Source of the DNA: Trypanosoma brucei
Taxonomy: Eukaryota
DNA length: 64,000 nucleotides
Direction of reading: 5' to 3'
NCBI GenBank assembly: GCA_000002445.1
Contig: CP000067.1
Location: forward strand, 1,280,001 to 1,344,000
Under the pieces are notes generated by a model, which worked only from the letters and a program-made list of their open reading frames with translations, had not been told where the DNA came from and ran no database searches. The position numbers and the translations under genes are program-made. Below, piece after piece: positions 5,046 to 50,582 of the stretch. The stretch's first letter is position 1. Each line of letters starts with the position of its first letter.

Positions 5046-6062
5046 CTTTTCTTTTTTCACCCAATCTATCATTCCACATCATTTCTCCCATTAGAACACG
5101 ATGGTATGGAGTAATAATGTGAGGTGAAGCACAAACATATGATGTGAGAAGGAGAGGTGTGACTGTAGTGTTCCATCCGAAGGAAGAGTTAACAAATAAC
5201 ATATACAGTAGCGACACTTCCCATACTGTGCACATAACACAGCATGGTATATTAGTATGCACAGGGGAAAACTATGTCGATATATAACGCACCTTTAGCC
5301 ACCGTACGGGGTGCAGTATCGTGATTGGGCCGTTCCTGAAAGCTAAAAATCCTATGGCGAACTGGAGCGCTCCGTGCAGGCAAAGTAGCTCCCTAAAAGT
5401 CCTCCGCGCACTGACCAGGTCGGTACGGACAAATTCCGTTGCAGAGGAGCGGAGAACCCCCCAGGAAATGTGGAACCTAGACTTCAAGACCAAGCGTCAC
5501 GACACCTCTATTCCGCCAGAGCCTGTGTTCGGTCGCCTCCGACCAAAGAATGGATCCTAAGACGACGGTGGAAACAACGCAACCCTACGAAGCGAGAGGC
5601 GTAAGAACCACTGACTAGCAAAACGACAATGCAGCGCAACTCCGATGAAGTGAAGCATGCTCCGGTCGGGAACCACCGGAAACTCGCAAACGACGATCTG
5701 GTTAGTCGAAAGGGGTCCAGTGTGCGCGCAGGACTCCGCACAACCGCACCCACCTCCCTTGGATAGCCCGGCGCAGTTCCACTGCATCCCGCGCAACGAC
5801 GGGCCGGGATTCTCTTCCACATCACCGGACAGCAGCATCTTAGTGCGTATGATACTGCTGATGGCACGCTGGCACGTGCCCAGGGACCGACAAATGAAAA
5901 GCGGTGTCCCAGCAAGACACTGCTGATCCCTGTGCCGTATGATGCCGTAGCCGGAGCAAAGCAGTGTTCCCCATGAAAGGAACGCTGTTGGCTCTTGGCT
6001 TCCCCCGATGATACGGGGTACTGGACCCTGGCACCACGTTGAGGTGGCCGGCATCGCCAGGG
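5046..6062 (-). mobile_element. ingi/RIME-type non-LTR retroposon remnant. The 5' end at 6062 is well defined; the 3' limit is unresolved, lying between ~5550 (a RIME-sized ~512 bp element) and the A-rich tract at ~5046-5062
   Basis: The minus-strand sequence starting at 6062 reads CCCTGGCGATGCCGGCCACCTCAACGTGGTGCCAGGGTCCAGTACCCCGTATCATCGGGGGAAGCCAAGAGCC..., the conserved 5' signature of T. brucei RIME/ingi as I recall it. An ATG at element position ~9 opens a 165-codon frame encoding ...LLSGDVEENPGP..., a canonical 2A ribosome-skipping motif known from ingi/L1Tc. Three overlapping minus-strand ORFs in different frames (5508-6124) fit a decayed element. RIME is ~0.5 kb with a ~160-codon ORF, which fits 6062 to ~5550. 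Confidence 0.55.
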
Positions 6063-7301
6063 TCCCTACACGTGAAAAACAGCTGCCAAGGTGGCCTGAC
6101 CGCTGGAAACCAATCTAGCACCAATTGTTGCCCTGAGATAAAAGAGGAGAAGCACTGAGAGCTTGGGAAACGGCCGGAGTGTCGTTGCTAACGTCTTCTC
6201 CCCTCTGCGGTCTCAGAAGTCACTTCACACAGGCCGCGTCTTTTGCAGAAGCGCCGCATCTCCGGGGCGCCACTTTTTGAGCTTCACTGCTGACACGTTA
6301 CGGTTGTTTTTACTACGAACAAAGATGAGGAGAGATTCAGCTACTCAGGAAGCTTCTAGACGCACCAAAGTTTCGGGTTTTGAGCCCACCAGCATAGGCA
6401 AACGTGCCCAAGCTAATGTGGTTGAAATGTCTCTTTACTAAATAGTGTCCATCCGTTCCTGAAGAGTGTGTGCAGACAACGTGCGGTGGAAGGCGAGTCT
6501 CCTAATGAGACCGTGTTGGGGAAAAGGTCAGGAAAGTTCTTCCATACAATTAGTGGAGTCCATGCCGCAGCGGTCACCTTTTTTACAAAAGAAGGATGCG
6601 CTCACTTAAAAGAAAGATACCACTCAAAGGGTTTCAGCGTATGAGAATGGACAAAGTGGTCTATTATAGCTTTTTTTTGTTGAAAGCCTGCATTACGAAT
6701 GGTTTTGGGCTTAGGAATGCAGAGTATTTTTTTGTACGGTTATCTTTGTATAAACACACTGTCCTCCCGTTTATGTACACAGCTGTTTGCAAGAGGGTGA
6801 AAATTTTAGAAAGCTCACCCAACCAAACCCAACCCTCTACGCCCCGCACGGGAGGTGAGTAAACTGCGCTTTCAGACACTTCCATATCGTTAGTAAATTA
6901 TCGTTTCAATTCATATTTGTGTAGGATGATGAGGAACGCTTACTGTTTCTTCAGCATGATAATTATTTCGTATATCTTTCTTGTCCGTAGTAAAAAGGGA
7001 AGGTAAGAACTAAACTATTCTTGGTGGAATGAGGGGGGAATTTAGTTGACATCTTCCCCCGCCACACCGTTACTTTTGCCATCCGAAGGTTCTTAAAACC
7101 TTGTCTCAGCACTCGTCAGCCACGACGTCGTGGCTGCCGCCATGATACGGTTACTTTCGGTGGTTTCATCCACATCGATGTATTTCGTGCACTTTGTAGT
7201 GCAGTCGCACTTTTTCCCCCCTTTAAATTAGGCGAAAACAAAACGCAGCGGTGCTTGTTGACAGTATTTTTTCAAGCCTGTCAGCCAGAAGAAAAGAAAG
7301 A

Positions 7302-7374
7302 CGCGCAGTCCGGGAATCGAACCCGGGGCTCCCGCTAATTGAGTGCGAGTGACTTTCCACTAGACTAACCGCGC
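7302..7374 (-). ncRNA. Aberrant tRNA-like gene with a 9-nt anticodon loop. Candidate trypanosomatid SRP-associated tRNA-like RNA, or a tRNA pseudogene
   Basis: The minus-strand sequence is GCGCGGT-TA-GTCT-AGTGGAA-AGTC-A-CTCGC-ACTCAATTA-GCGGG-AGCC-CCGGG-TTCGATT-CCCGG-ACTGCGC-G. The 7-bp acceptor stem, the T-arm (GGTTCGATTCC B box) and the A-box-like TAGTCTAGTGG are all good. The D-stem has one mismatch, and the anticodon stem CTCGC/GCGGG encloses a 9-nt loop instead of 7. The 3' end is followed by a T4 run (plus 7291-7301 is gaaaagaaaga), consistent with a Pol III terminator. Confidence 0.5.
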
Positions 7375-7443
7375 CACCTGAGCGTTTGGTGTTCAAAATT
7401 TATTGCAACGTGCAGCGTCCGAAGAACGGGAAATATAAAAAGG

Positions 7444-7516
7444 CTACGACGGGCGGGGATCGAACCCGCGATCTCTCGCGTGTGAGGCGAATGTCCTAAC
7501 CACTAGACGACCATCG
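7444..7516 (-). tRNA. tRNA-Val (anticodon CAC), 73 nt, CCA not encoded
   Basis: Manual cloverleaf: GCGATGG-TC-GTCT-AGTGGTTA-GGAC-A-TTCGC-CTCACAC-GCGAG-AGATC-GCGGG-TTCGATC-CCCGC-CCGTCGT-A. All stems pair, with two G-U pairs in the acceptor. U33, A37, T54-T55-C56 and A58 are present, and the discriminator is A73. The anticodon arm TTCGCCTCACACGCGAG is almost identical to metazoan tRNA-Val(CAC). A T5 run lies immediately 3' on the minus strand (plus 7431-7443). Confidence 0.8.
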
Positions 7517-7609
7517 CACGGTAAGCATTCCTCAGGGGTAGCTCATAGAAATGATTGTTGAACCGACCGGATCAAGGAACTTGCGGGTGTTGCGGACGAA
7601 TGGCTGTTA

Positions 7610-7890
7610 AGAGGCAAACCTGTTGGTTTGGAGGACTTTGGGGCGCACCCGGGTGGAGATGTTTCAGATGCGGAAGGGTTGGAAGAGTTGGAAGGGAGAT
7701 GCGAATCCACCACCTTACGCGAAGTGGGAGGCACGAAAAGGAAGCACGGCAACTGTAGCAAAAGCAACGTGAATGCCAGTGGTGTGTTTGCGTTGTTTCC
7801 GCGGCGCTGGAAAGAGTGCAAAGACCGGGAAAATAGAGTTGCGGTTCATATAAAACCGTATGCGTGCAATGCCCGGTGGTGAAGCAGGAT
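7610..7890 (+). ncRNA. Candidate 7SL (SRP) RNA gene, divergently oriented from the upstream tRNA. Boundaries are approximate (+/-15 nt)
   Basis: It contains an SRP-RNA helix-8-like motif, GGAGGCAC-GAAA-AGGAAGCACGGC, at ~7722-7750. This has a GNRA tetraloop and the 3'-side GGAAGCA(G)C signature of SRP RNA domain IV. The putative 5' end is ~97 bp from the tRNA 5' end at 7516, as in trypanosome Pol III small-RNA genes that use a divergent upstream tRNA as promoter. The 5' segment AAACCTG (~7628) can pair with the 3' segment CAGGATTT (~7883-7890). No long T-run terminator is seen (only TTT at 7888-7890), which lowers confidence. Confidence 0.4.
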
Positions 7891-9621
7891 TTAAGCAAAA
7901 AAAAAAAGAGATAAATACGCGGGGGGGGGGAAGTTTACGAGTTCAACATGTGAAAGGTGTTTCGTAGCAGGGGCTTTGATAATGCACATCAACCTCGTGA
8001 GTATGCACGGCCCCGTGGCACCGCTAAAGGGACTACGAGCAGTGGAGGGAAAGTGGGGTTAGCCATAGCCGCGCCGGTGTTGAGACCAAAATAAAAAAAG
8101 GGATGACGTGGAGGTAACAGTTAAGGAAGGAGAGGATAGAGAGAACAGGGTGGGGTTGGAATAAAATGTTCCTAGTAAACTTTTGATGTTCACGGGGCAC
8201 GTGGGACTCCAGAGAGTAAGGAGAGGTGCGCACTTAAGGCACACACAAGAAAAATGCATACTGAATCCGATTGCGCGCTCCGAGGGGTTTCCTGACGCTT
8301 TTATAAGGAAGTGGAAAGTGTGAAGTGAAACCCACCATTGCCCCATACTGCGGCTAAACGTAAGCGAGGCGAGTTGGTCTAAAAGGTTTAGTAGGAAGGA
8401 TACACGGCGATGGAAAGAAGGACGTTTACAACAAATTGAAGTTGGGCATCCAAGGATTGCTGAGCCACTTGCCCGAATGCACTGCCCTGAAGAATCTGAA
8501 GATGAAACATGAACTAATAGGCTTGATGGGGAAAGCGCCTCGCGGGGAGGCAAAATTGGCGGGGTTCCTTTCCGTTTGACTCGGAAAGGGAGGGTACCGG
8601 TGCTCAATGGTTGGGAAATGGCTCCGATCAGTGATGCGGAAGGAAGAGAACAAACAAATCAAGAATAGGGGCGCCCGAAACAAATCCACCACCGGAGACG
8701 TCGGATTGAGGAGTGTGTGTGTGTGTGGGGGGGGAAGGGGAGCAGCGGTGGAAGGACGATCTCTGCAAAGCACGGCGTAGACACAAATTGATTGTAGTTC
8801 ACTAATTCCCTCGTGGTCTGCTTTCGCCCATTCTCCATAGTGATGCATGAGTTCCCGCTGCGACTGTCAATGACGGGCTGCCCATCAACGGGCTGTTTCC
8901 ATTCAAAGAGGCAGGCAGCGCTGCGTGCGATTTCCATTCCCACGTGTTAGAAAAATCCACCGACAGTACAGGGTGACTTTTAGCTTGACTCAGCTCCGCA
9001 ACGCAAAGAGGAAAGGCAGCTTTTTTTTTTTTTTAAAAAAAAGAGATCTTGGGGCTGATCACGCACAAACGCCGATGTAAGAAACGTTGGCTTTTGTCTC
9101 ATTGTTGACTCGTCTTTCATGACACATTGGCCTGGGTCCCAGGCGCGAGGGAAGGAACCGCAACAGTTTAGCGGGGCTCAGTGTGGGTGATGTGGGTGCA
9201 AGCCGACTGAGCTCAGTTAATCGTCCCAATGATAATGCGGTGCAACTTTTTTGCCATAGTGTGTGTGCGTGTGTGTGTGTGCCCGAAAACCCTCCGCTAA
9301 CAACTCAGCTTTAGCGGTGGTTACATACATCGACGCAATTCATGCACCCCCGTTTGTCTCGGGCGTGTGGGTAACCATCGCTTCACCTATGTGGTGTAGA
9401 GAGCTGTGAAATTCAAGGAGAAAAAAACAGCATGTAAAAAGCAAAAACTCTGCTTACGTGTGTTGCTTGTGCTTCATCGGAAGGGGACACTCCGCGTAAG
9501 TTACAATAATTAGGTTAAACGCCCCTCGTACGGCACTCCAACTGCATTAGGTTCCATTTCCCCCTCCCCCCCCCCACACACACCCACTCTCCCCTCTGTG
9601 CGATCCGGGCCAGAAAATTCC

Positions 9622-11160
9622 TCAGCTGAAGGCAGCGGACTTTAGGGTCTGCACTTCAGTTTCTGCTGTCTTTATAATCGTCGGCGCTACCTTTCGGCGG
9701 GCCATCTCCATGCAGAGGGGCCGATGTGACTTGTAATCTTCTCGTTGACATGCCACACCACAATAAGATACGGTGCGGCAAGCGGCGCACTTCAGCACTT
9801 CTTTTACATTTCCCGGGCAACACGGATTGTGGCATTTCGGGGTAACCCCATTTTCATTTGGCGGCGTCTTACTGTGCACCGCAAGGTGATATTGAGGCTC
9901 GCTCAGGAAGGCGAATGTGGTGATGATGTACTCCTTAAGTGTGTGCAGATGCTGTGTCACACTACCTTTCCCGAGGCGTGTGTATATGTTGTCGGCGGTG
10001 GTGAGTGCGCGGTCCAGCACCGGAAGTTGTTCGCTTGCGCAGGCCATATTTTTCACTTCCCGTCGCACCACATGCAATGCGAGGGCGACGCTTGCAACAT
10101 GGGATGGAAGATCAGTATGCAGGTTTATTGACCCCGTCATGATCGCCTTCACGTGGCGGAATGCGTCGAACAGTGCTACTCTCGCTGCAAAAAGGGACCC
10201 ATTTTGAACCCTACGCACCGGCTTGTCGAGGAAAGGATTGCGGTAATCCAGTCGCTGGAGCAAATCCTCCACCAACTTACATGCAAACGCATCATCCTCC
10301 TTTACTGCCATCATAAGCAAACAGTCAATGACTTTCATTTTCTCAATGTCCTTTATAAACAACGTGTACGTGCTACGGAACTTCACGTAACATGGACAAC
10401 GGTCACAACAGACATATGTCCCAGTTCCATTCGCATTGGCACCCTGGAACATGCTATACACACCAACGCACGGGCTAAAGCAAAAGAACAGCGCCCTTAG
10501 CGAATCCATCAACGCACCAAAGATCTCCAAGTTGTCGAGCGAGGTCCTCAAACCATTTATTAAGCTGAGGGTGGTTTTCATAGCCTCTTCTGCATTGGAG
10601 GTGCTAAATTTGGTTGGAGTATTTCTGGGTTCCCCAATATCCAGTATGAATTCCTTAATGTTTCCGAGGGCTTCTACCTTCGAATTCACGTCCCATTGCG
10701 GGTACTTGGAAACAAGCCGGATAGCCTCAAAAACACGACGGGCGATGTCACAGAATGAATCCATACCCTTGGGAAACCGCGGCCATTCTTCCTCATCCTT
10801 CGCCGCCGTCGCGTTGTAGAACTCATAGCAAGCCTCTCCCAAAAAAGGGTCCTTATGGAGTACGGCGAATGCCATGAAGTCATTAAGCAGGCGAAGTGCC
10901 GCAGGGAAGCGGTCCTCTGGTTGAAAACAGGCTCCAATGTAATCCACCAACCATCCGAGGTCGATGGATTGAAAGGGATATCGGAGTACGGTTGCATTGT
11001 TCATTGTGCTTTCCACCGCTTGTGCATTTGCCAAACGGGTCTCATTACTGGGCGTGGATGGGGAAGTTGTCATGGTCGGTTTGACTAACAGGCGCGCATT
11101 ATTTTCAAGAACGAGCGCAAGGGGAGAAAAGCAACGGGAGATGGATGAGGGACTCGTCAT
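9622..11160 (-). CDS. MYND-type zinc finger protein
   Basis: The 512 aa ORF has a C-terminal CHNPCCPGNVKEVLKCAACRTVSYCGVACQREDYKSHRPLC. This matches the MYND C-x2-C...C-x2-C...C-x3-C...H-x3-C arrangement. The rest is helical with no other recognised domain. Confidence 0.7.
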   Translation of the reverse strand: MTSPSSISRCFSPLALVLENNARLLVKPTMTTSPSTPSNETRLANAQAVESTMNNATVLRYPFQSIDLGWLVDYIGACFQPEDRFPAALRLLNDFMAFAVLHKDPFLGEACYEFYNATAAKDEEEWPRFPKGMDSFCDIARRVFEAIRLVSKYPQWDVNSKVEALGNIKEFILDIGEPRNTPTKFSTSNAEEAMKTTLSLINGLRTSLDNLEIFGALMDSLRALFFCFSPCVGVYSMFQGANANGTGTYVCCDRCPCYVKFRSTYTLFIKDIEKMKVIDCLLMMAVKEDDAFACKLVEDLLQRLDYRNPFLDKPVRRVQNGSLFAARVALFDAFRHVKAIMTGSINLHTDLPSHVASVALALHVVRREVKNMACASEQLPVLDRALTTADNIYTRLGKGSVTQHLHTLKEYIITTFAFLSEPQYHLAVHSKTPPNENGVTPKCHNPCCPGNVKEVLKCAACRTVSYCGVACQREDYKSHRPLCMEMARRKVAPTIIKTAETEVQTLKSAAFS

Positions 11161-20968: not shown

Positions 20969-22390
20969 TTAAGAATACCTCTTAATTGTGTAGTAAACAG
21001 ACGCGCTCGTACCAAAGACAATTGCAACAACGCCCAGAATGAGCAATACATATGTCAAGATATACTGCACCCAGCCCACGCTTTGGCGTGTCCAACCACC
21101 GGCGTACATGATGAAGAGTGCGGGGAATATAAAGCCAATGAAACCACCGCAGAAGGCACCAACAAGTCCGAAGATGACGTTGATGTCTGGCACGAACAAA
21201 CCGAGAACGAGCGAACCGACAGCAAATGAAACACTGACGATACTGTGCCTAACATATGACATGGTATCCAGGTCCCACCGCAGCACCTGAAAGAGGGCTG
21301 TACGGCATGCGAGCATGTTAAGCGAAAACCCAGCGCAGAGTTTGACGATGATGCCAATGAAGCAAACAAAGAAGACGGGATTTGCGTAGGGGTCGTAAAG
21401 CTTCAGAACGGAGCCCTCCACCGTTGGGCCGAATTCTGCGTAGCCGAAAAATCCGGTGAGCAGGTAGACACAGCAGCAAATGGAGCAGCTCACCGCCGCA
21501 TCGCGGGTCATACGAGTGACGGAACGCTTCTTCATCTCAAAGAAGATGGAGAATGAGTTCACATGACAAAGATAAGCGAAGATGAATAGCGAAAGCCCTG
21601 CCACGGCGTCATTACCGGAACGGAACATGACAAGTTCCTGCTTGATGCCGCCATCGGTAACCATCTTTTCAGCCGAGTGCTCCACCACACAGATGGCGAA
21701 GAATAGGATGAACGAAACGCCGATCGCTGACGCATAGCGCAATGAATTCACCCTCTTAGGGAGCGTCAACGGAAAGATGAAGACAAACCAGATGGCACTC
21801 GTGAGCAGGCGGCGGCCGCCTTTGGACTGCAGATATGCCGGTACCTTTTCATGTGAAAGCAATCCTTGCAGTACGTCACCGATTGCCACCACATATCCAG
21901 AGGCACCGCCAAAGCACAGAAGCCACAACAGAAAACCCACAGCAATATCAGCACGGGGACCGAGTAGGTTACGCGCCATGGATTCAAAGCTGCGGTAGCC
22001 GGTCTTTTCCGCCGCAGACACAATCAGGAAGATGGAGAAGACGGTAAAAACCGTAACCAGCAGCAAATAGATGATTGCCATGATCATGCCTGATGTGTTG
22101 AAAGCGGATGGAATTGACATGATACCGGCGCCCAATGTAACACTTGCCAGGTTGAAGATGCCGGAAAGGGCACCACCGCGCGGTAAGATAAAGTGGAAAC
22201 AGCGCATCAACGCGTTGCCTTGTTCTTCGGGCTTTTGTGCTTCTCCAGATTTCTCCGGTGATTCCCCTTCACTCAAGTTGGAACGAGCGAGGAGGTTGTC
22301 TGCGAGAACATTTGGAGTGCGTAATGGTTCCGCTGTTGCCTCATTGGTAGGGCACTTGTTTGGCGCTTGTGCAGCAGCTTCAAATGTCAT
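20969..22390 (-). CDS. Amino acid transporter (AAT/AAAP family, PF01490-like), a divergent solo member
   Basis: The 473 aa ORF has ~11 predicted TM helices and shares motifs with the array genes (e.g. LRYASAIGVSFILFF, NVIFGLVGAFCGGFIGFIFPALFIMYAGG), with ~35-40% identity to them. Confidence 0.8.
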   Translation of the reverse strand: MTFEAAAQAPNKCPTNEATAEPLRTPNVLADNLLARSNLSEGESPEKSGEAQKPEEQGNALMRCFHFILPRGGALSGIFNLASVTLGAGIMSIPSAFNTSGMIMAIIYLLLVTVFTVFSIFLIVSAAEKTGYRSFESMARNLLGPRADIAVGFLLWLLCFGGASGYVVAIGDVLQGLLSHEKVPAYLQSKGGRRLLTSAIWFVFIFPLTLPKRVNSLRYASAIGVSFILFFAICVVEHSAEKMVTDGGIKQELVMFRSGNDAVAGLSLFIFAYLCHVNSFSIFFEMKKRSVTRMTRDAAVSCSICCCVYLLTGFFGYAEFGPTVEGSVLKLYDPYANPVFFVCFIGIIVKLCAGFSLNMLACRTALFQVLRWDLDTMSYVRHSIVSVSFAVGSLVLGLFVPDINVIFGLVGAFCGGFIGFIFPALFIMYAGGWTRQSVGWVQYILTYVLLILGVVAIVFGTSASVYYTIKRYS

Positions 22391-43209: not shown

Positions 43210-44688
43210 TTACCAGCCCACAGCCACTCCGTATATAGTGGCTCCAGTGCCAAATACAGACAAGGCAACACCAGCAAATAAAACTGCGTATGTTGCAATG
43301 TAGTGTAGCCACCCAACGGTACTCAGGGACCAGTTACCACCATACATCATGAATAAGGAGGGAAGGATGAATGCAAGAAATCCACCACACACAGAGCCAA
43401 CGAAACCAAGTACTGTATTAATGTTCGGAATAAATAGGCCACAAAGCAGCATAATTATGGAAATGGTTCCAATAATAGTGCAATGCTTAAAAAATGAAAG
43501 CTTCTCCGTATCCAAGCCGATAATGCCGCACAACCCATTTCGGCATGTCATTGCAAGAAGAGCGTAAGATGCGAATAGTTTTACGAGCAGGCCAACAAAT
43601 CCCACCAAAATTGCCGGCTCCTTCACGGGGTCATACATCAATAACACGGAGCCTGCCACATCACGCCCAAAGTCAAGGTAACCGAAGAATGCTGTCATGA
43701 CACACAGGACAAGACATATACCCATGGCAATAGCAGAGTATGCAGTAAACCTGTGCGCACTGGGCTTTGCCATTCCGAAATATATTTCAAAAACAGAGAT
43801 ATGACACAAAAATGCAAACGTAAAGACACCTGGGCCTTCCACTGCCCGGTTGCTGGTGCCGAAGAGGTGAATGCCCTCATCACCTGGCGCTCCAGTAACA
43901 TGTACGTTCTTAATGTTTTCCGGCAGCCCGTTCATACATGAATGCACCACAATAACTACCATAAGGTAAAATACGAAGAAAACAGAAATCGTCGAGACAT
44001 ACCTCAAGGAATTCACCTCTCGTGGAATGGTGAGTGGTAGCATAAAACATAGCCACATGATGAAAGTCAGAAGGCGATTACCCCACTTCTCCTTAAGGAA
44101 GTTTGGCGCATCTGTACCCTTAAGTATTGTGCTAACAATATCGCCTGTCGCTATTATCTGCGCTACGGCTGCCCCAAATGCCTCAACAACACGTAATACC
44201 CCTATAAAGTACAAACAAGGCTGCCCAAGCAGCGCACGCGCCATACCCTCGTAGGATCTGAATCCATGCCGCTCCATTTGTGCACCAAGACAATATAATG
44301 AGTATACGCATAGGAAATATATGATGATAGGGTACACAAATGCCATGACCAGTCCAGTGCTGTTGGCGGCCGCGGGCAACCCGAGGATACCAGCTCCGAT
44401 ACATATGGAGGCAAGGCTGAAGGCGGTCGAAACTAGCCCGCCCGGAGGGATCATTGAAGTGAAACACTTCATGGATGACTGTTCCCCTTCTCCCTCATTA
44501 GCGGGAAGAGCATTCTTGCCCTTAAGCCCTTCATCATCTCCACTTATCACTTCGCAGGAGCCGAAAGGAGATGTGACATCTGCCTTGTTTATCTGTTCCC
44601 TGTCTGTTGTGGGGACCACTGCGGACGCCATCCAACAATAATGATAACAGAGTGTTTGCCTTGCTTGCGCACTTACGTGCATACGCAA
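43210..44688 (-). CDS. Amino acid transporter, type A (492 aa), array copy 2
   Basis: Near-identical to copy 1 (e.g. ISGDDEG versus ISGEDEG, ERHGF versus ERHRF). Confidence 0.85.
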   Translation of the reverse strand: MRMHVSAQARQTLCYHYCWMASAVVPTTDREQINKADVTSPFGSCEVISGDDEGLKGKNALPANEGEGEQSSMKCFTSMIPPGGLVSTAFSLASICIGAGILGLPAAANSTGLVMAFVYPIIIYFLCVYSLYCLGAQMERHGFRSYEGMARALLGQPCLYFIGVLRVVEAFGAAVAQIIATGDIVSTILKGTDAPNFLKEKWGNRLLTFIMWLCFMLPLTIPREVNSLRYVSTISVFFVFYLMVVIVVHSCMNGLPENIKNVHVTGAPGDEGIHLFGTSNRAVEGPGVFTFAFLCHISVFEIYFGMAKPSAHRFTAYSAIAMGICLVLCVMTAFFGYLDFGRDVAGSVLLMYDPVKEPAILVGFVGLLVKLFASYALLAMTCRNGLCGIIGLDTEKLSFFKHCTIIGTISIIMLLCGLFIPNINTVLGFVGSVCGGFLAFILPSLFMMYGGNWSLSTVGWLHYIATYAVLFAGVALSVFGTGATIYGVAVGW

Positions 44689-45308
44689 AAGAAAAAGGGA
44701 GCAAACAGCGTAATGGAGAGTAATTGTTTAGGGGATGATCATCCATGCGGTTGTGAATAACCGAAGATGATGGATATGCAGTGGTTATAGTCAGTTCAGT
44801 GAGGCAAAAAAAAAAGGCGTTGAAACCATCTTTTTACACGGTGAATATTGCCAAATGTACTCCTTATGTGTTAAGCTCGGAACACGTCTATGTGTAAATG
44901 TATATGGAAAAAACGAGGTGAAGGGGACATGTTTACTGATGTAGATACACAAACCTCACGAAACATAAGAGCTGCGCAAAGGGACGGACGAACAAAATAC
45001 GGTTACCGAAGCCGCCGCAGCGACAGCAGGGTACCTAAGATATTAAATCGGGATAATAAGTTATGATAAAAGCAATAACACATAAAGAATACGTAAGCCG
45101 ATACAAAGCAAATCGTTTCACAGTGAACAGGAGGGAATGGATTCGCTCACCCACTTCAGTTAAAACGCTACTCGCTCAGTAGTTGAGTAAACCAAATCAA
45201 AAAAGGAAGGACAAGGTAAACAAAACAGATATTTAACAGTGCCAACAACGTTGTCACGACCTTCTTTTTAAATCATTCACTCGGGCTGACCCTTATCATC
45301 CCTTGCTT

Positions 45309-46697
45309 TTATATGTTAATAGCTCCCCAGATGGAAGCCCCCGTGCCAAACACAATTGCAATGACACCAGTGATGAGTACCGTATACGTCGCGATATAGT
45401 GAAAGGGCCCAACTTTCTGCCATGTAAATCCACCGGCATACAATAACAACAGAGCAGGGAAAATGAATCCAAGAAGTCCACCAGAGATCGAACCAGCGAG
45501 GCCAAGTACTGTATTAATGTTTGGAATAAATAGGCCACAAAGCAGCATAATTACGGAAAGGGTTACGACAGCAACACAGTGCTTCCAGAACATCACCTTC
45601 TCCGCATCCCAACCAATAATGCTGTACAGCGCGTTACGGCATGCCATTCCGAGCAGCGCGTAAGATGCGAATAGTTTTACGAGCAGGCCGATGAATCCCA
45701 CCATAATTGCCGGCTCCTTCACGGGGTCATACATCAATAACACGGAGCCTGTAACATCACGCCCAAAGTCAAGGTAACCGAAGAATGCTGTCAAAACGTA
45801 CATGGTGAAGCAGACAGCCATTGCAATGGTGGATGCCATTACAAACTTACCCACCGACCTGTTTGTCATTCCTACATAGACCTCATACGCCGTAATTTGT
45901 GAGACGTAGGCGAAAATGAACACCCCAAGTCCTTCGATGGCCTTGTTCCCACTGTTAAAAAGCACAATTGCAGCCACATCATTCCTGCCCACGCTGACGT
46001 TCTTGATGTTTTCCGGCAACCCGTTCATACATGAATGCACCACAATAACGATCACAAGGTAGACAATGAAGCTAACAGCAAAGGTCGAGACGTACCTCAA
46101 GGAATTCACCTCTCGTGGAATGGCGAGTGGTAGCATAAAACATAGCCACATGATGAAAGTCAGAAGGCGATTACCCCACTTCTCCTTAAGGAAGTCTGGC
46201 GCATCTGTACCCTTAAGTATTGCGCTGAGGATATCACCCACGGATATTATGTACGCCACACAACCGCTGAAGCCATGAAAGGCACGGGTTGCGGCCACAA
46301 GGTAGGATCCCTTGGCACCAAACAATACTTTTGCCACACCCTCAAAGTCGTGTGTTTTTGTTTTGTCTGCAGCGACACCGAGGGCATATATGGAGAATAT
46401 AGTCATAACAGTAATTATAATGAGGTATACAATAGCCATAACGAGTCCGCTACTGTTGGCAGCGGAGGGTAGACCGACGATACCAGCTCCAACGGTTGAT
46501 GATGCGATGTTGAAAGCACTTGCGGCAATGCCTCCGGGTGGGATGGCGGTGGCCACAAATGTGCTCATCCGTGCAAGGAAGCCGGTTCCCTCCCGCTGCT
46601 CTTGTGACTTGGGGTCTACAGCCGCGTCGCAGCATCCGATTGGTTCGTTCCTGACTTCCATGGCGGTGGGAACCTCTCGGGAGCAGGAGTCAGTCAC
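45309..46697 (-). CDS. Amino acid transporter, type B (462 aa), array copy 2
   Basis: Identical translation to 41321-42709. Confidence 0.85.
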   Translation of the reverse strand: MTDSCSREVPTAMEVRNEPIGCCDAAVDPKSQEQREGTGFLARMSTFVATAIPPGGIAASAFNIASSTVGAGIVGLPSAANSSGLVMAIVYLIIITVMTIFSIYALGVAADKTKTHDFEGVAKVLFGAKGSYLVAATRAFHGFSGCVAYIISVGDILSAILKGTDAPDFLKEKWGNRLLTFIMWLCFMLPLAIPREVNSLRYVSTFAVSFIVYLVIVIVVHSCMNGLPENIKNVSVGRNDVAAIVLFNSGNKAIEGLGVFIFAYVSQITAYEVYVGMTNRSVGKFVMASTIAMAVCFTMYVLTAFFGYLDFGRDVTGSVLLMYDPVKEPAIMVGFIGLLVKLFASYALLGMACRNALYSIIGWDAEKVMFWKHCVAVVTLSVIMLLCGLFIPNINTVLGLAGSISGGLLGFIFPALLLLYAGGFTWQKVGPFHYIATYTVLITGVIAIVFGTGASIWGAINI

Positions 46698-47197
46698 AAT
46701 CGAGTCTGCGCCTTCGTTGCTCGTATTCTCTTTGTACTGGTATACGTGTGTGTGTGTTTTGGTGTGCAGTCAAAAAAATGTAGAAGAGAGTATAGGAGAA
46801 GGGAAAAGCACATTTTGTGTTATTTCCATATTGGTTCCGGAATGTGCATCGGCATGGGCATGGGAGCGACGTGCACAGAACGTTTAACACTAATCCAACA
46901 AGATTGAAAACACATGTTATACCGCCTCTCCCCCATTTTTACGGAAAAATATTTCGTCCATGTTATACGTAAGAATAATGTACCCGCTACAGAAGGAATT
47001 GCTGCTGGTTAGCACCGTCCCTTCAAAGGGGGAATTATTACCGTATAATTCACGTTCGAGGAAGGAAATAACATATTTACCAGAGTTTTTAAGTTATTCC
47101 GTATATTATTTGCTTGTGAAGCGCTTTTTTACTCTAAAGTTGTGGCTTGTTACAACATTTTGCTTCGGAAGTACCGTTTGCCAAGCGTGGGGCATTA

Positions 47198-48676
47198 TTA
47201 CCAACCCACAGCCACTCCGTATATAGTGGCTCCAGTGCCAAATACAGACAAGGCAACACCAGCAAATAAAACTGCGTATGTTGCAATGTAGTGTAGCCAC
47301 CCAACGGTACTCAGGGACCAGTTACCACCATACATCATGAATAAGGAGGGAAGGATGAATCCAAGAAATCCACCACACACAGAGCCAACGAAACCAAACA
47401 CTGTATTAATGTTCGGAATAAATAGGCCACAAAGCAGCATAATTACGGAAAGGATTCCAATAATAGTGCAATGCTTAAAAAATGAAAGCTTCTCCGCATC
47501 CCACTCAACGATGCCGCACAACCCATTTCGGCAGGACATTGCAAGAAGAGCGTAAGATGCGAATAGTTTCGTAAGGACGCCAACAAATCCCACCAAAATT
47601 GCCGGCTCCTTCACGGGGTCATACATCAATAACACGGAGCCCGTAACTTTCCCCCCAAAGTCAAGGTAACCGAAGAATGCTGTCATGACACACAGGACAA
47701 GACATATACCCATGGCAATAGCAGAGTATGCAGTAAACCTGTGCGCACTTGGCTTTGCCATTCCGAAATATATTTCGAAGGCGTAACATTGACAAACAAA
47801 TGCAAACGTAAAGACACCTGGGCCTTCCACTGCCCGGTTGCTAGTGCCGAAGAGGTGAATGCCCTCATCACCTGGCGCTCCAGTAACATGTACGTTCTTA
47901 ATGTTTTCCGGCAGCCCGTTCATACATGAATGCACCACAATAACGCCCATAAGGTAAAATATAAAGACAACAGCAAAGGTCGAGACATACCTCAAGGAAT
48001 TCACCTCTCGTGGAATGGTGAGTGGTAGCATAAAACATAGCCACATGATGAAAGTCAGAAGGCGATTACCCCACTTCTCCTTAAGGAAGTTTGGCGCATC
48101 TGTACCCTTAAGTATTGTGCTAACAATATCGCCAACGGAGATTATGTACGCCACACAGGCCCCAAATGCGTTAACCACACGTAATACTCCAGTGAGGTGC
48201 GCACCGTAGGGCCCAAGCAGCGCACGCGCCATACCCTCGTAGGATCTGAATCCATGCCGCTCCATTTGTGCACCAAGACAATATAATGAGTATACGCATA
48301 GGAAATATATGATGATAGGGTACACAAATGTCATGACCAGTCCAGTGCTGTTGGCGGCCGCGGGCAACCCGAGGATACCAGCTCCGATACATATGGAGGC
48401 AAGGCTGAAGGCGGTCGAAACTAGCCCGCCCGGAGGGATCATTGAAGTGAAACACTTCATGGATGACTGTTCCCCTTCTCCCTCATTAGCGGGAAGAGCA
48501 TTCTTGCCCTTAAGCCCTTCATCTTCTCCACCTATCACTTCGCAGGAGCCGAAAGGAGATGTGACATCTGCCTTGTTTATCTGTTCCCTGTCTGTTGTGG
48601 GGACCACTGCGGACGCCATCCAACAACAATGATAACAGAGTGTTTGCCTTGCTTGCGCACTTACGTGCATACGCAA
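47198..48676 (-). CDS. Amino acid transporter, type A (492 aa), array copy 3; a mosaic carrying type-B patches
   Basis: It has the type-A N- and C-termini but internal segments matching type B (GACVAYIISVGDI, VSTFAV, WDAEK, LSVIMLLCGLF). Confidence 0.85.
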   Translation of the reverse strand: MRMHVSAQARQTLCYHCCWMASAVVPTTDREQINKADVTSPFGSCEVIGGEDEGLKGKNALPANEGEGEQSSMKCFTSMIPPGGLVSTAFSLASICIGAGILGLPAAANSTGLVMTFVYPIIIYFLCVYSLYCLGAQMERHGFRSYEGMARALLGPYGAHLTGVLRVVNAFGACVAYIISVGDIVSTILKGTDAPNFLKEKWGNRLLTFIMWLCFMLPLTIPREVNSLRYVSTFAVVFIFYLMGVIVVHSCMNGLPENIKNVHVTGAPGDEGIHLFGTSNRAVEGPGVFTFAFVCQCYAFEIYFGMAKPSAHRFTAYSAIAMGICLVLCVMTAFFGYLDFGGKVTGSVLLMYDPVKEPAILVGFVGVLTKLFASYALLAMSCRNGLCGIVEWDAEKLSFFKHCTIIGILSVIMLLCGLFIPNINTVFGFVGSVCGGFLGFILPSLFMMYGGNWSLSTVGWLHYIATYAVLFAGVALSVFGTGATIYGVAVGW

Positions 48677-49190
48677 AAGAAAAAGGGAGCAAACAGCGTA
48701 ATGGAGAGTAATTGTTTAGGGGATGATCATCCATGCGGTTGTGAATAACCGAAGATGATGGATATGCAGTGGTGACAGAAAATGAAGAGAAGGCGGGCGG
48801 ACATCCTTCTTAGGTGGTAGGATTGTCTGACTGCTGAATTACGCTAGGATTGTTGCGCACGTTGTGAAGAACACAACAACTGTACTTTATTGTTAATAGG
48901 AAAATTTAATGCTGCCATCTTAGGATAAATACAACACGAACAGCATCTAGTAATGTGCTGGTGGGGCGATAACATCACCGTTAGTGGATGAAGGAGTGGT
49001 TTCTTCTACGTGCTTATATAAAATAGGAAAACCATTACACAAAATTAAATAAGAAGTTTACGATTAGAACACACCCATATTATCCACCTACATCAATAAT
49101 TGACGACGCAGGAAATCCCAACAAACAGGACCGTGAAAGAGTCAATGACAACTAAAGGACATCTGTGACTAAGGCATTTTTAATCAATTG

Positions 49191-50582
49191 TCAATTTCCC
49201 ACCACTACGCCATGTATAGTGGCCCCCGTGCCAAACACAATGGCCAGCACACCACTAAGCAACAACGTATACGTCGCGATATAGTGAAAGGGCCCAACTT
49301 TCTGCCATGTAAATCCACCGGCATACAATAACAACAGAGCAGGGAAAATGAATCCAAGAAGTCCACCAGAGATCGAACCAGCGAGGCCAAGTACTGTATT
49401 AATGTTTGGAATAAATAGGCCACAAAGCAGCATAATTACGGAAAGGGTTACGACAGCAACACAGTGCTTCCAGAAGATCACCTTCTCCGCATCCCAACCA
49501 ATAATGCTGTACAGCGCGTTACGGCATGCCATTCCGAGCAGCGCGTAAGATGCGAATAGTTTTACGAGCAGGCCGATGAATCCCACCATAATTGCCGGCT
49601 CCTTCACGGGGTCATACATCAATAACACGGAGCCTGTAACATCACGCCCAAAGTCAAGGTAACCGAAGAATGCAGTCATGGCATACAGCACGGAGCACGT
49701 TGCCATCGCGATGCTCGTGGCGACGATAAACTTGCGTACAGACCTGTCTTCCATGTCCATGTAAACCTCATACGCCGTAATTTGTGAGACGTAGGCGAAA
49801 ATGAACACCCCAAGTCCTTCGATGGCCTTGTTCCCACTGTTAAAAAGCACAATTGCAGCCACATCATTCCTGCCCACGCTGACGTTCTTGATGTTTTCCG
49901 GCAACCCGTTCATACATGAATGCACCACAATAACGATCACAAGGTAGACAATGAAGCTAACAGCAAAGGTCGAGACGTACCTCAAGGAATTCACCTCTCG
50001 TGGAATGGCGAGTGGTAGCATAAAACATAGCCACATGATGAAAGTCAGAAGGCGATTACCCCACTTCTCCTTAAGGAAGTCTGGCGCATCTGTACCCTTA
50101 AGTATTGCGCTGAGGATATCACCCACGGATATTATGTACGCCACACAGGCGCTGAAGCCATGAAAGGCACGGGTTGCGGCCACAAGGTAGGATCCCTTGG
50201 CACCAAACAATACTTTTGCCACACCCTCAAAGTCGTGTGTTTTTGTTTTGTCTGCAGCGACACCGAGGGCATATATGGAGAATATAGTCATAACAGTAAT
50301 TATAATGAGGTATACAATAGCCATAACGAGTCCGCTACTGTTGGCAGCGGAGGGTAGACCGACGATACCAGCTCCAACGGTTGATGATGCGATGTTGAAA
50401 GCACTTGCGGCAATGCCTCCGGGTGGGATGGCGGTGGCCACAAATGTGCTCATCCGTGCAAGGAAGCCGGTTCCCTCCCGCTGCTCTTGTGACTTGGGGT
50501 CTACAGCCGCGTCGCAGCATCCGATTGGTTCGTTCCTGACTTCCATGGCGGTGGGAACCTCTCGGGAGCAGGAGTCAGTCAC
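49191..50582 (-). CDS. Amino acid transporter, type B (463 aa), array copy 3; a variant with unique internal and C-terminal patches
   Basis: It is identical to the other B copies for ~280 aa, then diverges (YMDMEDRSVRKFIVATSIAMATCSVLYAM; C-terminus ...LLLSGVLAIVFGTGATIHGVVVGN). Confidence 0.85.
   Translation of the reverse strand: MTDSCSREVPTAMEVRNEPIGCCDAAVDPKSQEQREGTGFLARMSTFVATAIPPGGIAASAFNIASSTVGAGIVGLPSAANSSGLVMAIVYLIIITVMTIFSIYALGVAADKTKTHDFEGVAKVLFGAKGSYLVAATRAFHGFSACVAYIISVGDILSAILKGTDAPDFLKEKWGNRLLTFIMWLCFMLPLAIPREVNSLRYVSTFAVSFIVYLVIVIVVHSCMNGLPENIKNVSVGRNDVAAIVLFNSGNKAIEGLGVFIFAYVSQITAYEVYMDMEDRSVRKFIVATSIAMATCSVLYAMTAFFGYLDFGRDVTGSVLLMYDPVKEPAIMVGFIGLLVKLFASYALLGMACRNALYSIIGWDAEKVIFWKHCVAVVTLSVIMLLCGLFIPNINTVLGLAGSISGGLLGFIFPALLLLYAGGFTWQKVGPFHYIATYTLLLSGVLAIVFGTGATIHGVVVGN

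What the first reader, a model, noticed from the sequence alone, without database searches (positions are those of the whole stretch)
7302..7890. Pol III island: divergent tRNA / candidate 7SL (SRP) RNA arrangement inside a Pol II polycistron
Two minus-strand tRNA-type genes 69 bp apart sit ~97 bp upstream of, and divergent from, a plus-strand region carrying an SRP-RNA helix-8-like motif (GGAGGCAC-GAAA-AGGAAGCACGGC). Trypanosome U6, U3 and 7SL genes are known to use a divergent upstream tRNA or tRNA-like gene as their promoter. Trypanosomatid SRP uniquely contains a second, tRNA-like RNA encoded next to the 7SL gene. This locus has the right architecture for that system. The exact 7SL boundaries and which tRNA-type gene is the partner cannot be fixed from sequence alone.
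Basis: partly seen in the sequence, partly recalled or inferred. Interest (0 to 1): 0.7.

Follow-up and report, generated by a model that had tools for sequence, protein, structure and literature searches.

The report
Known trypanosome sRNA-76 gene, no 7SL
[quoted passage not shown] The proposed 7SL RNA gene beside them does not exist; the real one lies on another chromosome.

Summary
The window matches T. brucei TREU927 chromosome 4, about 1,280,001-1,344,000. Two minus-strand tRNA-type genes are real. 7445-7517 is tRNA-Val(CAC), Tb927.4.4666. 7302-7374 is a 73-nt tRNA-like gene with a 9-nt anticodon loop. Its coordinates, with an offset of 1,280,000, equal those published for Tb927.4.4663. 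That gene was first misannotated as tRNA-Sec and later corrected to sRNA-76, the tRNA-like RNA that joins 7SL RNA in the trypanosome SRP.

The plus-strand "candidate 7SL" at about 7600-7890 is not supported.
- No SRP family hit appears in Rfam, even at E<=10.
- Four published stretches of T. brucei 7SL are absent from the whole window.
- The plus strand has no run of four or more T between 7273 and 8180.
- The fold is no better than shuffled sequence, and the "helix-8 motif" forms no hairpin.
- Nothing there is conserved in six other Trypanosoma loci.
- It carries 10 substitutions against T. b. equiperdum, while both Pol III genes carry none.

The single-copy 7SL gene, Tb927.8.2861, lies on chromosome 8 next to its own divergent tRNA-Lys. 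The feature is already known and of low interest.

The parts
7302..7374 (-). sRNA-76 gene (Tb927.4.4663). It encodes a 73-nt tRNA-like RNA, the second RNA of the trypanosome SRP. ARAGORN mis-calls it tRNA-Leu(CAA), and GeneDB formerly called it tRNA-Sec.
   Evidence: ARAGORN. Rfam tRNA 40.3 bits with a 9-nt insert in place of the 7-nt anticodon loop. Published coordinates Tb927_04_v4 1287302-1287374(-), annotated 'really sRNA-76', equal the window coordinates plus 1,280,000. It is 100% identical in T. b. equiperdum.
7357..7367 (-). Box A-like internal promoter element of sRNA-76 (RNA nt 8-18, TAGTCTAGTGG).
   Evidence: Read from the sequence. Compared with the eukaryotic consensus TRGCNNAGTGG from my own knowledge; it differs at position 4, as does the neighbouring tRNA-Val.
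7313..7323 (-). Box B of sRNA-76 (RNA nt 52-62, GGTTCGATTCC).
   Evidence: Read from the sequence. It matches the consensus GGTTCGANTCC (my own knowledge) at 11 of 11 positions.
7336..7344 (-). Enlarged 9-nt 'anticodon' loop ACUCAAUUA (RNA nt 31-39). It contains the UCA that led to the old tRNA-Sec annotation.
   Evidence: Rfam alignment shows *[9]* where the model has 7; sequence. That the UCA caused the tRNA-Sec annotation is my inference.
7325..7336 (-). AGCGGGAGCCCC (RNA nt 39-50). It is complementary in two 6-bp blocks to 7SL nt 30-35 and 39-44 (GGGGCU/CCCGCU).
   Evidence: Duplex prediction against the published Tbr 7SL-sRNA and the 7SL 1-80 stretch rebuilt from published oligos. It is only marginally better than shuffles: 69 of 2000 and 92 of 1000 shuffles do as well.
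7292..7295 (-). T4 Pol III terminator of sRNA-76, 6 nt past the gene end.
   Evidence: It lies within the 0-7 nt distance and the 4-10 T range reported for T. brucei tRNA genes (PMC2695483).
7445..7517 (-). tRNA-Val(CAC), Tb927.4.4666, the only Val-CAC gene of T. brucei.
   Evidence: Rfam 60.9 bits. Published coordinates 1287445-1287517(-). The published terminator string AGCCTTTTTATATTTCCCGTT matches the window flank. Gene count from Table 1 of PMC2695483. The sequence is 100% identical in five other Trypanosoma species.
7437..7441 (-). T5 Pol III terminator of tRNA-Val.
7518..7900 (+). It is unconserved, purine-rich intergenic spacer with no detectable RNA gene.
   Evidence: No Rfam hit at E<=10. 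No T>=4 on the plus strand from 7273 to 8180. Fold z -0.39. No cross-species conservation. 10 substitutions against T. b. equiperdum in 7610-7895. No similarity to genuine 7SL segments beyond chance 8-11-mers.

Best explanation
The locus is the known T. brucei chromosome 4 Pol III cluster 'chr04-V'. It holds two tandem, same-strand, independently transcribed Pol III genes embedded in a minus-strand Pol II polycistron.

The upstream gene is the sole tRNA-Val(CAC). The downstream gene is sRNA-76, a 73-nt tRNA-like RNA. I infer, without showing it, that CCA addition gives the 76 nt of its name. Each gene has internal box A and box B elements and its own T-run terminator, so I infer a type-2 (tRNA-type) promoter. 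No divergent partner is needed.

According to the literature, sRNA-76 (sRNA-85 in Leptomonas) base-pairs with the 5' domain of 7SL RNA. [quoted passage not shown] It contacts the sarcin-ricin loop, the peptidyl-transferase centre and the small-subunit helix 31, and so would provide elongation arrest.

The plus-strand stretch 7518-7900 is spacer. It probably lies in the region downstream of the MYND-finger gene (3'UTR or Pol II run-off) and encodes no 7SL RNA.
For: Shown here:
- Two tRNA-type genes with terminators.
- The window is T. brucei: the MYND-finger ORF is 100% identical to the T. b. equiperdum protein.
- Window coordinates differ from the published Tb927_04_v4 coordinates of Tb927.4.4663 (sRNA-76) and Tb927.4.4666 (tRNA-Val CAC) by exactly 1,280,000.
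- The published tRNA-Val terminator string matches the flank.
- The 9-nt anticodon loop and short variable region are incompatible with a decoding tRNA-Leu or tRNA-Sec.
- There are 0 differences in 146 nt of the two genes against T. b. equiperdum. The 70-nt spacer has 9 and the 286-nt candidate region has 10.
- No SRP RNA hit at the gathering threshold over 64 kb, or at E<=10 over 6800-8600.
- Four published 7SL segments, 104 nt in all, are absent at up to 3 mismatches. A blastn-short search with about 170 nt of 7SL rebuilt from published oligos found only chance 8-11-mers.

From papers:
- 7SL is single copy on chromosome 8 (PMC6413958; PMC2695483 supplement).
- sRNA-76 and sRNA-85 function (PMC2800229; PMC9283944).
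Against: I did not hold the original sRNA-76 sequence (Beja et al. 1993). Identity therefore rests on coordinate and annotation matches from two independent papers plus one matching flank string, not on a direct sequence alignment.

Predicted sRNA-76:7SL complementarity is only marginally better than shuffles.

I ran no positive control of the Rfam SRP models on a full trypanosome 7SL, because the complete sequence was not obtainable with these tools.

No expression data were available for either strand.
Confidence: 0.95

Rival explanations
1. A 7SL (SRP) RNA gene, or a diverged 7SL paralogue, lies on the plus strand at about 7614-7890 and is driven by the divergent tRNA-Val gene.
For: The spacing of about 97 bp from the tRNA-Val 5' end recalls the tRNA/7SL and tRNA/U3 arrangement on chromosome 8. 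A purine-rich string containing GAAA and AGCA occurs at 7727-7750.
Against: No SRP family hit even at E<=10. Published 7SL segments are absent. There is no plus-strand T>=4 terminator for about 570 nt past the putative start. Fold z is -0.39, and the motif does not form a hairpin. The region is not conserved in any other Trypanosoma locus and evolves at background rate within T. brucei. 7SL is reported as single copy on chromosome 8.
Confidence: 0.01
2. Some other, unannotated small RNA (not 7SL) is transcribed from the plus strand near 7600-7900, using the tRNA-Val A and B boxes as a divergent extragenic promoter.
For: All T. brucei U-snRNA, U3 and 7SL genes use such a companion tRNA (Nakaar 1994, as cited in PMC3273796). 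Trypanosome small RNAs are short and diverged, so Rfam can miss them.
Against: No T-run terminator. No structure signal. No conservation, even though the tRNA-Val keeps its syntenic position in five species and is inverted in T. vivax without any conserved neighbour. The comparative ncRNA screen of Doniger et al. lists nothing in Tb927_04 1287518-1288999.
Confidence: 0.03
3. The gene at 7302-7374 is a decoding tRNA (Leu-CAA as ARAGORN calls it, or Sec-UCA as first annotated) or a dead tRNA pseudogene.
For: ARAGORN and Rfam both score it as a tRNA. It has a good acceptor stem, T arm and box B.
Against: It has a 9-nt anticodon loop. It lacks the long variable arm that Leu and Sec tRNAs need, and it has a mismatch in the D stem. 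The genuine T. brucei tRNA-Sec genes are on chromosome 9 and tRNA-Leu(CAA) is on chromosome 3. Two papers re-annotate it as sRNA-76. It is perfectly conserved against T. b. equiperdum while its flanks diverge, which argues against a pseudogene.
Confidence: 0.02

Closest known systems
T. brucei sRNA-76 (Tb927.4.4663; Beja, Ullu & Michaeli 1993)
   Same: Same chromosome coordinates (offset 1,280,000), strand, 73-nt length and neighbour (tRNA-Val CAC). It is this gene.
   Different: Nothing detected. A direct alignment to the deposited RNA sequence could not be done here.
Leptomonas collosoma sRNA-85 (Liu et al. 2003; 'RNA walk', PMC2800229)
   Same: A tRNA-like SRP RNA that pairs with 7SL and contacts the ribosome as both a tRNA and an Alu domain would. 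It is the functional homologue.
Divergent tRNA/small-RNA promoter units of trypanosomes (Nakaar et al. 1994), e.g. the chr08-II cluster with tRNA-Lys/7SL and tRNA-Arg/U3
   Same: A tRNA gene with A and B boxes sits in a compact Pol III cluster.
   Different: Here no small-RNA gene lies about 95-110 bp upstream in divergent orientation. The two genes are in tandem on the same strand, and each has its own internal promoter.
Eukaryotic 7SL/SRP RNA (Rfam SRP clan)
   Same: Only a functional link: sRNA-76 is its partner RNA.
   Different: No sequence, structure, terminator or conservation feature of 7SL is present in the window.
Canonical class I tRNA / tRNA-Sec
   Same: Cloverleaf with a 7-bp acceptor stem and a perfect T arm and box B.
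   Different: 9-nt anticodon loop, a D-stem mismatch and no Sec-type long variable arm. It is not counted among the 66 T. brucei tRNA genes (PMC2695483).

Membership tests
7SL / SRP RNA | Match to an SRP RNA covariance model (Rfam SRP families) | tested here: not met
   No SRP hit at gathering score over the whole window, nor at E<=10 with lax filters over 6800-8600. Caveat: no positive control on a complete trypanosome 7SL was possible.
7SL / SRP RNA | Sequence identity or similarity to the known T. brucei 7SL RNA (Tb927.8.2861) | tested here: not met
   Four published segments (nt 4-28, nt 29-54, nt 138-161 and the cr7SLb3 target) give 0 matches at up to 3 mismatches. About 170 nt rebuilt from published oligos give only chance 8-11-mers.
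7SL / SRP RNA | Helix 8 hairpin with a GNAR tetraloop and conserved internal loops | tested here: not met
   The GAAA at 7735-7738 is not closed by a stem. The 7700-7780 fold has z +0.83, and 7610-7895 has z -0.39.
7SL / SRP RNA | Pol III T-run terminator about 260-275 nt after the start | tested here: not met
   No T>=4 on the plus strand between 7273 and 8180.
7SL / SRP RNA | Conservation among trypanosomes | tested here: not met
   Only the tRNA-Val aligns between species in 6055-9621. There are 10 substitutions against T. b. equiperdum in 7610-7895.
sRNA-76 (tRNA-like SRP RNA) | Identity with the annotated gene Tb927.4.4663 | tested here: met
   Coordinates 1287302-1287374(-) equal window 7302-7374(-) plus 1,280,000. 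The neighbour Tb927.4.4666 also matches, and its published terminator string matches.
sRNA-76 (tRNA-like SRP RNA) | tRNA-like cloverleaf that deviates from the canonical tRNA | tested here: met
   Rfam tRNA 40.3 bits, against 60.9 for the neighbour. It has a 9-nt anticodon loop and one D-stem mismatch.
sRNA-76 (tRNA-like SRP RNA) | Base-pairing potential with the 5' domain of 7SL RNA | tested here: inconclusive
   Two 6-bp blocks pair with 7SL nt 30-44. Duplex energy is -32.1 kcal/mol, against -26.3 for tRNA-Val, but 3.5-9% of shuffles do as well. The interaction itself is taken from the literature.
sRNA-76 (tRNA-like SRP RNA) | Physical association with 7SL RNA and SRP proteins | not testable with these tools
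   Reported by Beja 1993, Liu 2003 and Lustig 2005, as cited in PMC2800229 and PMC9283944.
Decoding tRNA (Leu-CAA or Sec-UCA) | 7-nt anticodon loop, and a long variable arm for Leu and Sec | tested here: not met
   The loop is 9 nt and the variable region 4 nt.
Divergent tRNA-dependent small-RNA promoter unit (Nakaar type) | A small-RNA gene about 95-110 bp upstream of, and divergent from, a tRNA gene | tested here: not met
   No gene is detectable on the plus strand upstream of the tRNA-Val. sRNA-76 lies downstream of it on the same strand.

The most novel reading that the evidence does not exclude
sRNA-76 may have arisen by tandem duplication of the neighbouring tRNA-Val(CAC) gene and was then recruited into the SRP.

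The evidence is suggestive only. The two genes sit 70 bp apart in the same orientation. They share 66.7% gapped identity, including the D-arm GTCTAGTGG. The sRNA-76 anticodon arm looks like the tRNA-Val arm with two inserted bases. Padilla-Mejia et al. report that the T. cruzi sRNA-76-like genes are called 'Val-CAC' by tRNA finders.

In the other five species examined, the syntenic site holds only the tRNA-Val, or in T. cruzi Dm28c a decayed copy of it. The present adjacency could therefore also be secondary. The idea was not tested against a panel of other T. brucei tRNAs.
Probability: 0.3. Interest if true: 0.3.

Novelty: already known. Interest (0 to 1): 0.1.

Why it matters
As a discovery it matters little. 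Both genes have been annotated since 2005-2010, and sRNA-76 has been known since 1993. The value lies in correcting the claim: no second or hidden 7SL gene sits here, and in T. brucei the two SRP RNAs are encoded on different chromosomes (4 and 8). The locus is biologically important in its own right. It carries the only tRNA-Val(CAC) gene and the unique tRNA-like SRP component that is thought to stand in for the Alu domain.

Tried and rejected
- Rfam at gathering and at E<=10 gave only the two tRNA hits plus noise (Plastid-ycf2, osmY, Y RNA, all far below threshold).
- The bacterial-type promoter and terminator scan was uninformative for a eukaryote.
- I looked for sRNA-76 orthologues next to the syntenic tRNA-Val in T. 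vivax, T. theileri, T. melophagium, T. rangeli, T. cruzi and an unnamed Logan assembly. None were found by ARAGORN, Rfam or blastn-short.
- ARAGORN with relaxed thresholds produced only noise and was discarded.
- T. congolense synteny could not be fetched because the protein is not on record.
- I could not get the complete 7SL or the original sRNA-76 and sRNA-85 sequences. Liu 2003 is not held. Only oligo-derived 7SL pieces could be assembled, so no Rfam positive control was run.
- Duplex-energy tests of sRNA-76 against 7SL were not significant enough to count as independent proof.
- No supplementary small-RNA tables were held for PMC3273796.

Full report
**1. What is in the sequence**

ARAGORN finds exactly two tRNA-type genes in the 64-kb window. 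Both are on the minus strand, at 7302-7374 (called tRNA-Leu CAA) and 7442-7518 (tRNA-Val CAC). Rfam's tRNA model confirms both, at 7302-7374 with 40.3 bits and at 7445-7517 with 60.9 bits. These are the only Rfam matches above gathering score in the window.

The weaker gene has a 7-bp acceptor stem, a perfect T arm and box B (GGTTCGATTCC), and a box A-like TAGTCTAGTGG. It also has a 9-nt loop (ACUCAAUUA) where the anticodon loop should be, and only a 4-nt variable region. It therefore cannot be a class II tRNA-Leu or a tRNA-Sec.

Both genes are followed on their own strand by T-runs: T4 six nt after 7302, and T5 three nt after 7445. These fall within the ranges reported for T. brucei tRNA genes (PMC2695483). 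The spacer between them is 70 bp. All Pfam-supported ORFs on both sides are on the minus strand: NTPase_I-T at 363-968, the MYND-finger ORF at 9622-11160, Sld5, amino-acid transporters and others. The 'Pol III island inside a Pol II polycistron' description is correct.

**2. Where the window comes from**

The 512-aa MYND-finger ORF (9622-11160, minus strand) is 100% identical to a T. brucei equiperdum protein. It is 43-54% identical to orthologues in T. congolense, T. vivax, T. cruzi, T. rangeli, T. theileri and T. melophagium.

Two papers give coordinates for this locus.
- The supplement of Doniger et al. [quoted passage not shown] It also lists 'tRNA Valine 1287445-1287517, -1, Tb927.4.4666'.
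- Additional file 1 of Padilla-Mejia et al. 2009 (PMC2695483) gives the same coordinates, with 'Tb927.4.4663 (sRNA 76)' and 'Tb04_tRNA_Val_3 (CAC)'.

These equal the window coordinates plus exactly 1,280,000. The terminator string that paper lists for Tb04_tRNA_Val_3 (AGCCTTTTTATATTTCCCGTT) matches the minus-strand flank in the window. The window is therefore T. brucei TREU927 chromosome 4, about 1,280,001-1,344,000. The locus is the published cluster 'chr04-V'.

**3. What the tRNA-like gene is**

sRNA-76 is the tRNA-like RNA that co-purifies with 7SL RNA in T. brucei. Its Leptomonas counterpart is sRNA-85. The following is what the literature reports.
- The trypanosome SRP is unique in having two RNAs.
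- Its 7SL lacks part of the Alu domain and lacks SRP9/14.
- The tRNA-like RNA base-pairs with the 5' domain of 7SL.
- It cross-links to the sarcin-ricin loop, the peptidyl-transferase centre and helix 31 of the small subunit.
- It is proposed to supply the elongation-arrest function.

These points come from PMC2800229, PMC9283944 and PMC6413958.

I assembled part of the T. brucei 7SL from published oligos. The 26-nt 7SL-sRNA came from PMC12051490, and nt 1-80 came from the position-labelled oligos in PMC9626900. sRNA-76 nt 39-50 (AGCGGGAGCCCC) can pair with 7SL nt 30-35 and 39-44. The predicted duplex is stronger than for tRNA-Val (-32.1 against -26.3 kcal/mol). However, 3.5-9% of shuffled sequences do as well. 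I count this as consistent with the literature, not as independent proof. The mature length of 76 nt probably reflects 73 nt plus CCA. That is my inference.

**4. The candidate 7SL**

Every test was negative.

(a) No SRP family is hit at gathering score in the 64 kb, or at E<=10 with permissive filters in 6800-8600.

(b) The T. brucei 7SL gene is single copy on chromosome 8 (Tb927.8.2861, 860996..861256 complement). Its own divergent tRNA-Lys lies at 861366..861438, and a tRNA-Arg/U3 pair lies next door.

(c) Four published 7SL stretches have no match in the window at up to 3 mismatches on either strand. A blastn-short search with about 170 nt of 7SL rebuilt from published oligos gives only scattered 8-11-mers.

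(d) The plus strand has no run of four or more T between 7273 and 8180. A Pol III transcript starting near 7614 would have no terminator for about 570 nt.

(e) The 286-nt candidate folds no better than shuffles (z -0.39). The quoted motif at 7727-7750 is not a tetraloop hairpin (z +0.83).

(f) In the syntenic loci of T. vivax, T. theileri, T. melophagium and T. rangeli, the only conserved block in 6055-9621 is the tRNA-Val itself. T. cruzi shows only a 74% match to it, and the unnamed Logan assembly yielded no tRNA-type gene.

(g) Against T. b. equiperdum, the two Pol III genes have 0 differences in 146 nt. The candidate region has 10 substitutions in 286 nt, which is the background rate.

(h) The comparative ncRNA screen of Doniger et al. 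lists nothing else at Tb927_04 1,287,518-1,288,999.

**5. Mechanism**

The best-supported picture is two autonomous type-2 Pol III genes in tandem. Each has internal A and B boxes and its own terminator. They interrupt a minus-strand Pol II transcription unit, between the MYND-finger gene and a retroposon remnant.

The Nakaar-type arrangement is not realised here. In that arrangement a divergent tRNA about 95-110 bp upstream supplies the promoter for a small-RNA gene. It does apply to the true 7SL locus on chromosome 8.

The gene anatomy, the identity with the annotation and the absence of 7SL are shown here. The promoter mode and CCA addition are inferred. The function of sRNA-76 is taken from the literature.

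**6. Novelty and score**

The feature is already known and annotated. The headline claim of a 7SL gene, and the premise that the two SRP RNAs are neighbours, are both wrong.

The one mildly novel thread is that sRNA-76 may be a tandem duplicate of the adjacent tRNA-Val(CAC). The support is 66.7% gapped identity and similar D and anticodon arms, plus the report that T. cruzi homologues are called Val-CAC. I could not test this against other tRNAs. Interest: 0.1.

Noticed in passing
window 5557-6080, minus strand: An ingi/RIME-type retroposon 5' end lies about 1.2 kb downstream of sRNA-76. The sequence CCCTGGCGATGCCGGCCACCTCAACGTGGTGCCAGGGTCCAGTACCCCGTATCATCGGGGG is, from memory, the Pr77 hallmark. 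It is followed by a 165-aa ORF with a 2A-like DVEENPGP motif. The ORF has no Pfam hit, but it is called as a gene in the T. b. equiperdum assembly.
   Followed up: partly
L006 (T. cruzi Dm28c) 10705-10777, plus strand: A 73-nt decayed tRNA-Val(CAC)-like gene with downstream T-runs sits at the syntenic position after the MYND gene. It is 72.6% identical to tRNA-Val and 52.7% to sRNA-76. Its anticodon and T stems are broken. ARAGORN and Rfam gathering both miss it. It may be one of the odd 'Val-CAC' genes discussed by Padilla-Mejia et al.
   Followed up: partly
L002/L003 (T. vivax), L004 (T. theileri), L005 (T. melophagium), L007 (T. rangeli): tRNA-Val(CAC) is 100% identical in sequence across these species. 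It keeps its place just downstream of the MYND-finger gene, at 0.3-1.2 kb against 2.1 kb in T. brucei. In T. vivax it is inverted. sRNA-76 is adjacent only in T. brucei.
   Followed up: yes
window 7302-7517, minus strand: sRNA-76 and the neighbouring tRNA-Val share 66.7% gapped identity. The D-arm GTCTAGTGG is identical, and the anticodon arm differs mainly by two inserted bases. This suggests a possible tandem-duplication origin.
   Followed up: partly
window 7375-7444: The 70-nt spacer between the two Pol III genes has 9 substitutions against T. b. equiperdum (13%). This is far above the roughly 2.7% of the surrounding intergenic DNA, while the flanking genes are invariant.
   Followed up: no
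window 39221-50582, minus strand: Three tandem copies (period about 3.99 kb) of a pair of amino-acid-transporter genes (Pfam Aa_trans). A further Aa_trans gene lies at 20969-22390.
   Followed up: partly
window 7897-7907 and 8093-8099: There are long A-runs on the plus strand, which read as T11 and T7 on the minus, coding strand. G-runs lie nearby (7921-7930). On the minus strand these could act as polypyrimidine tracts or processing signals of the Pol II unit upstream of the tRNA genes.
   Followed up: no
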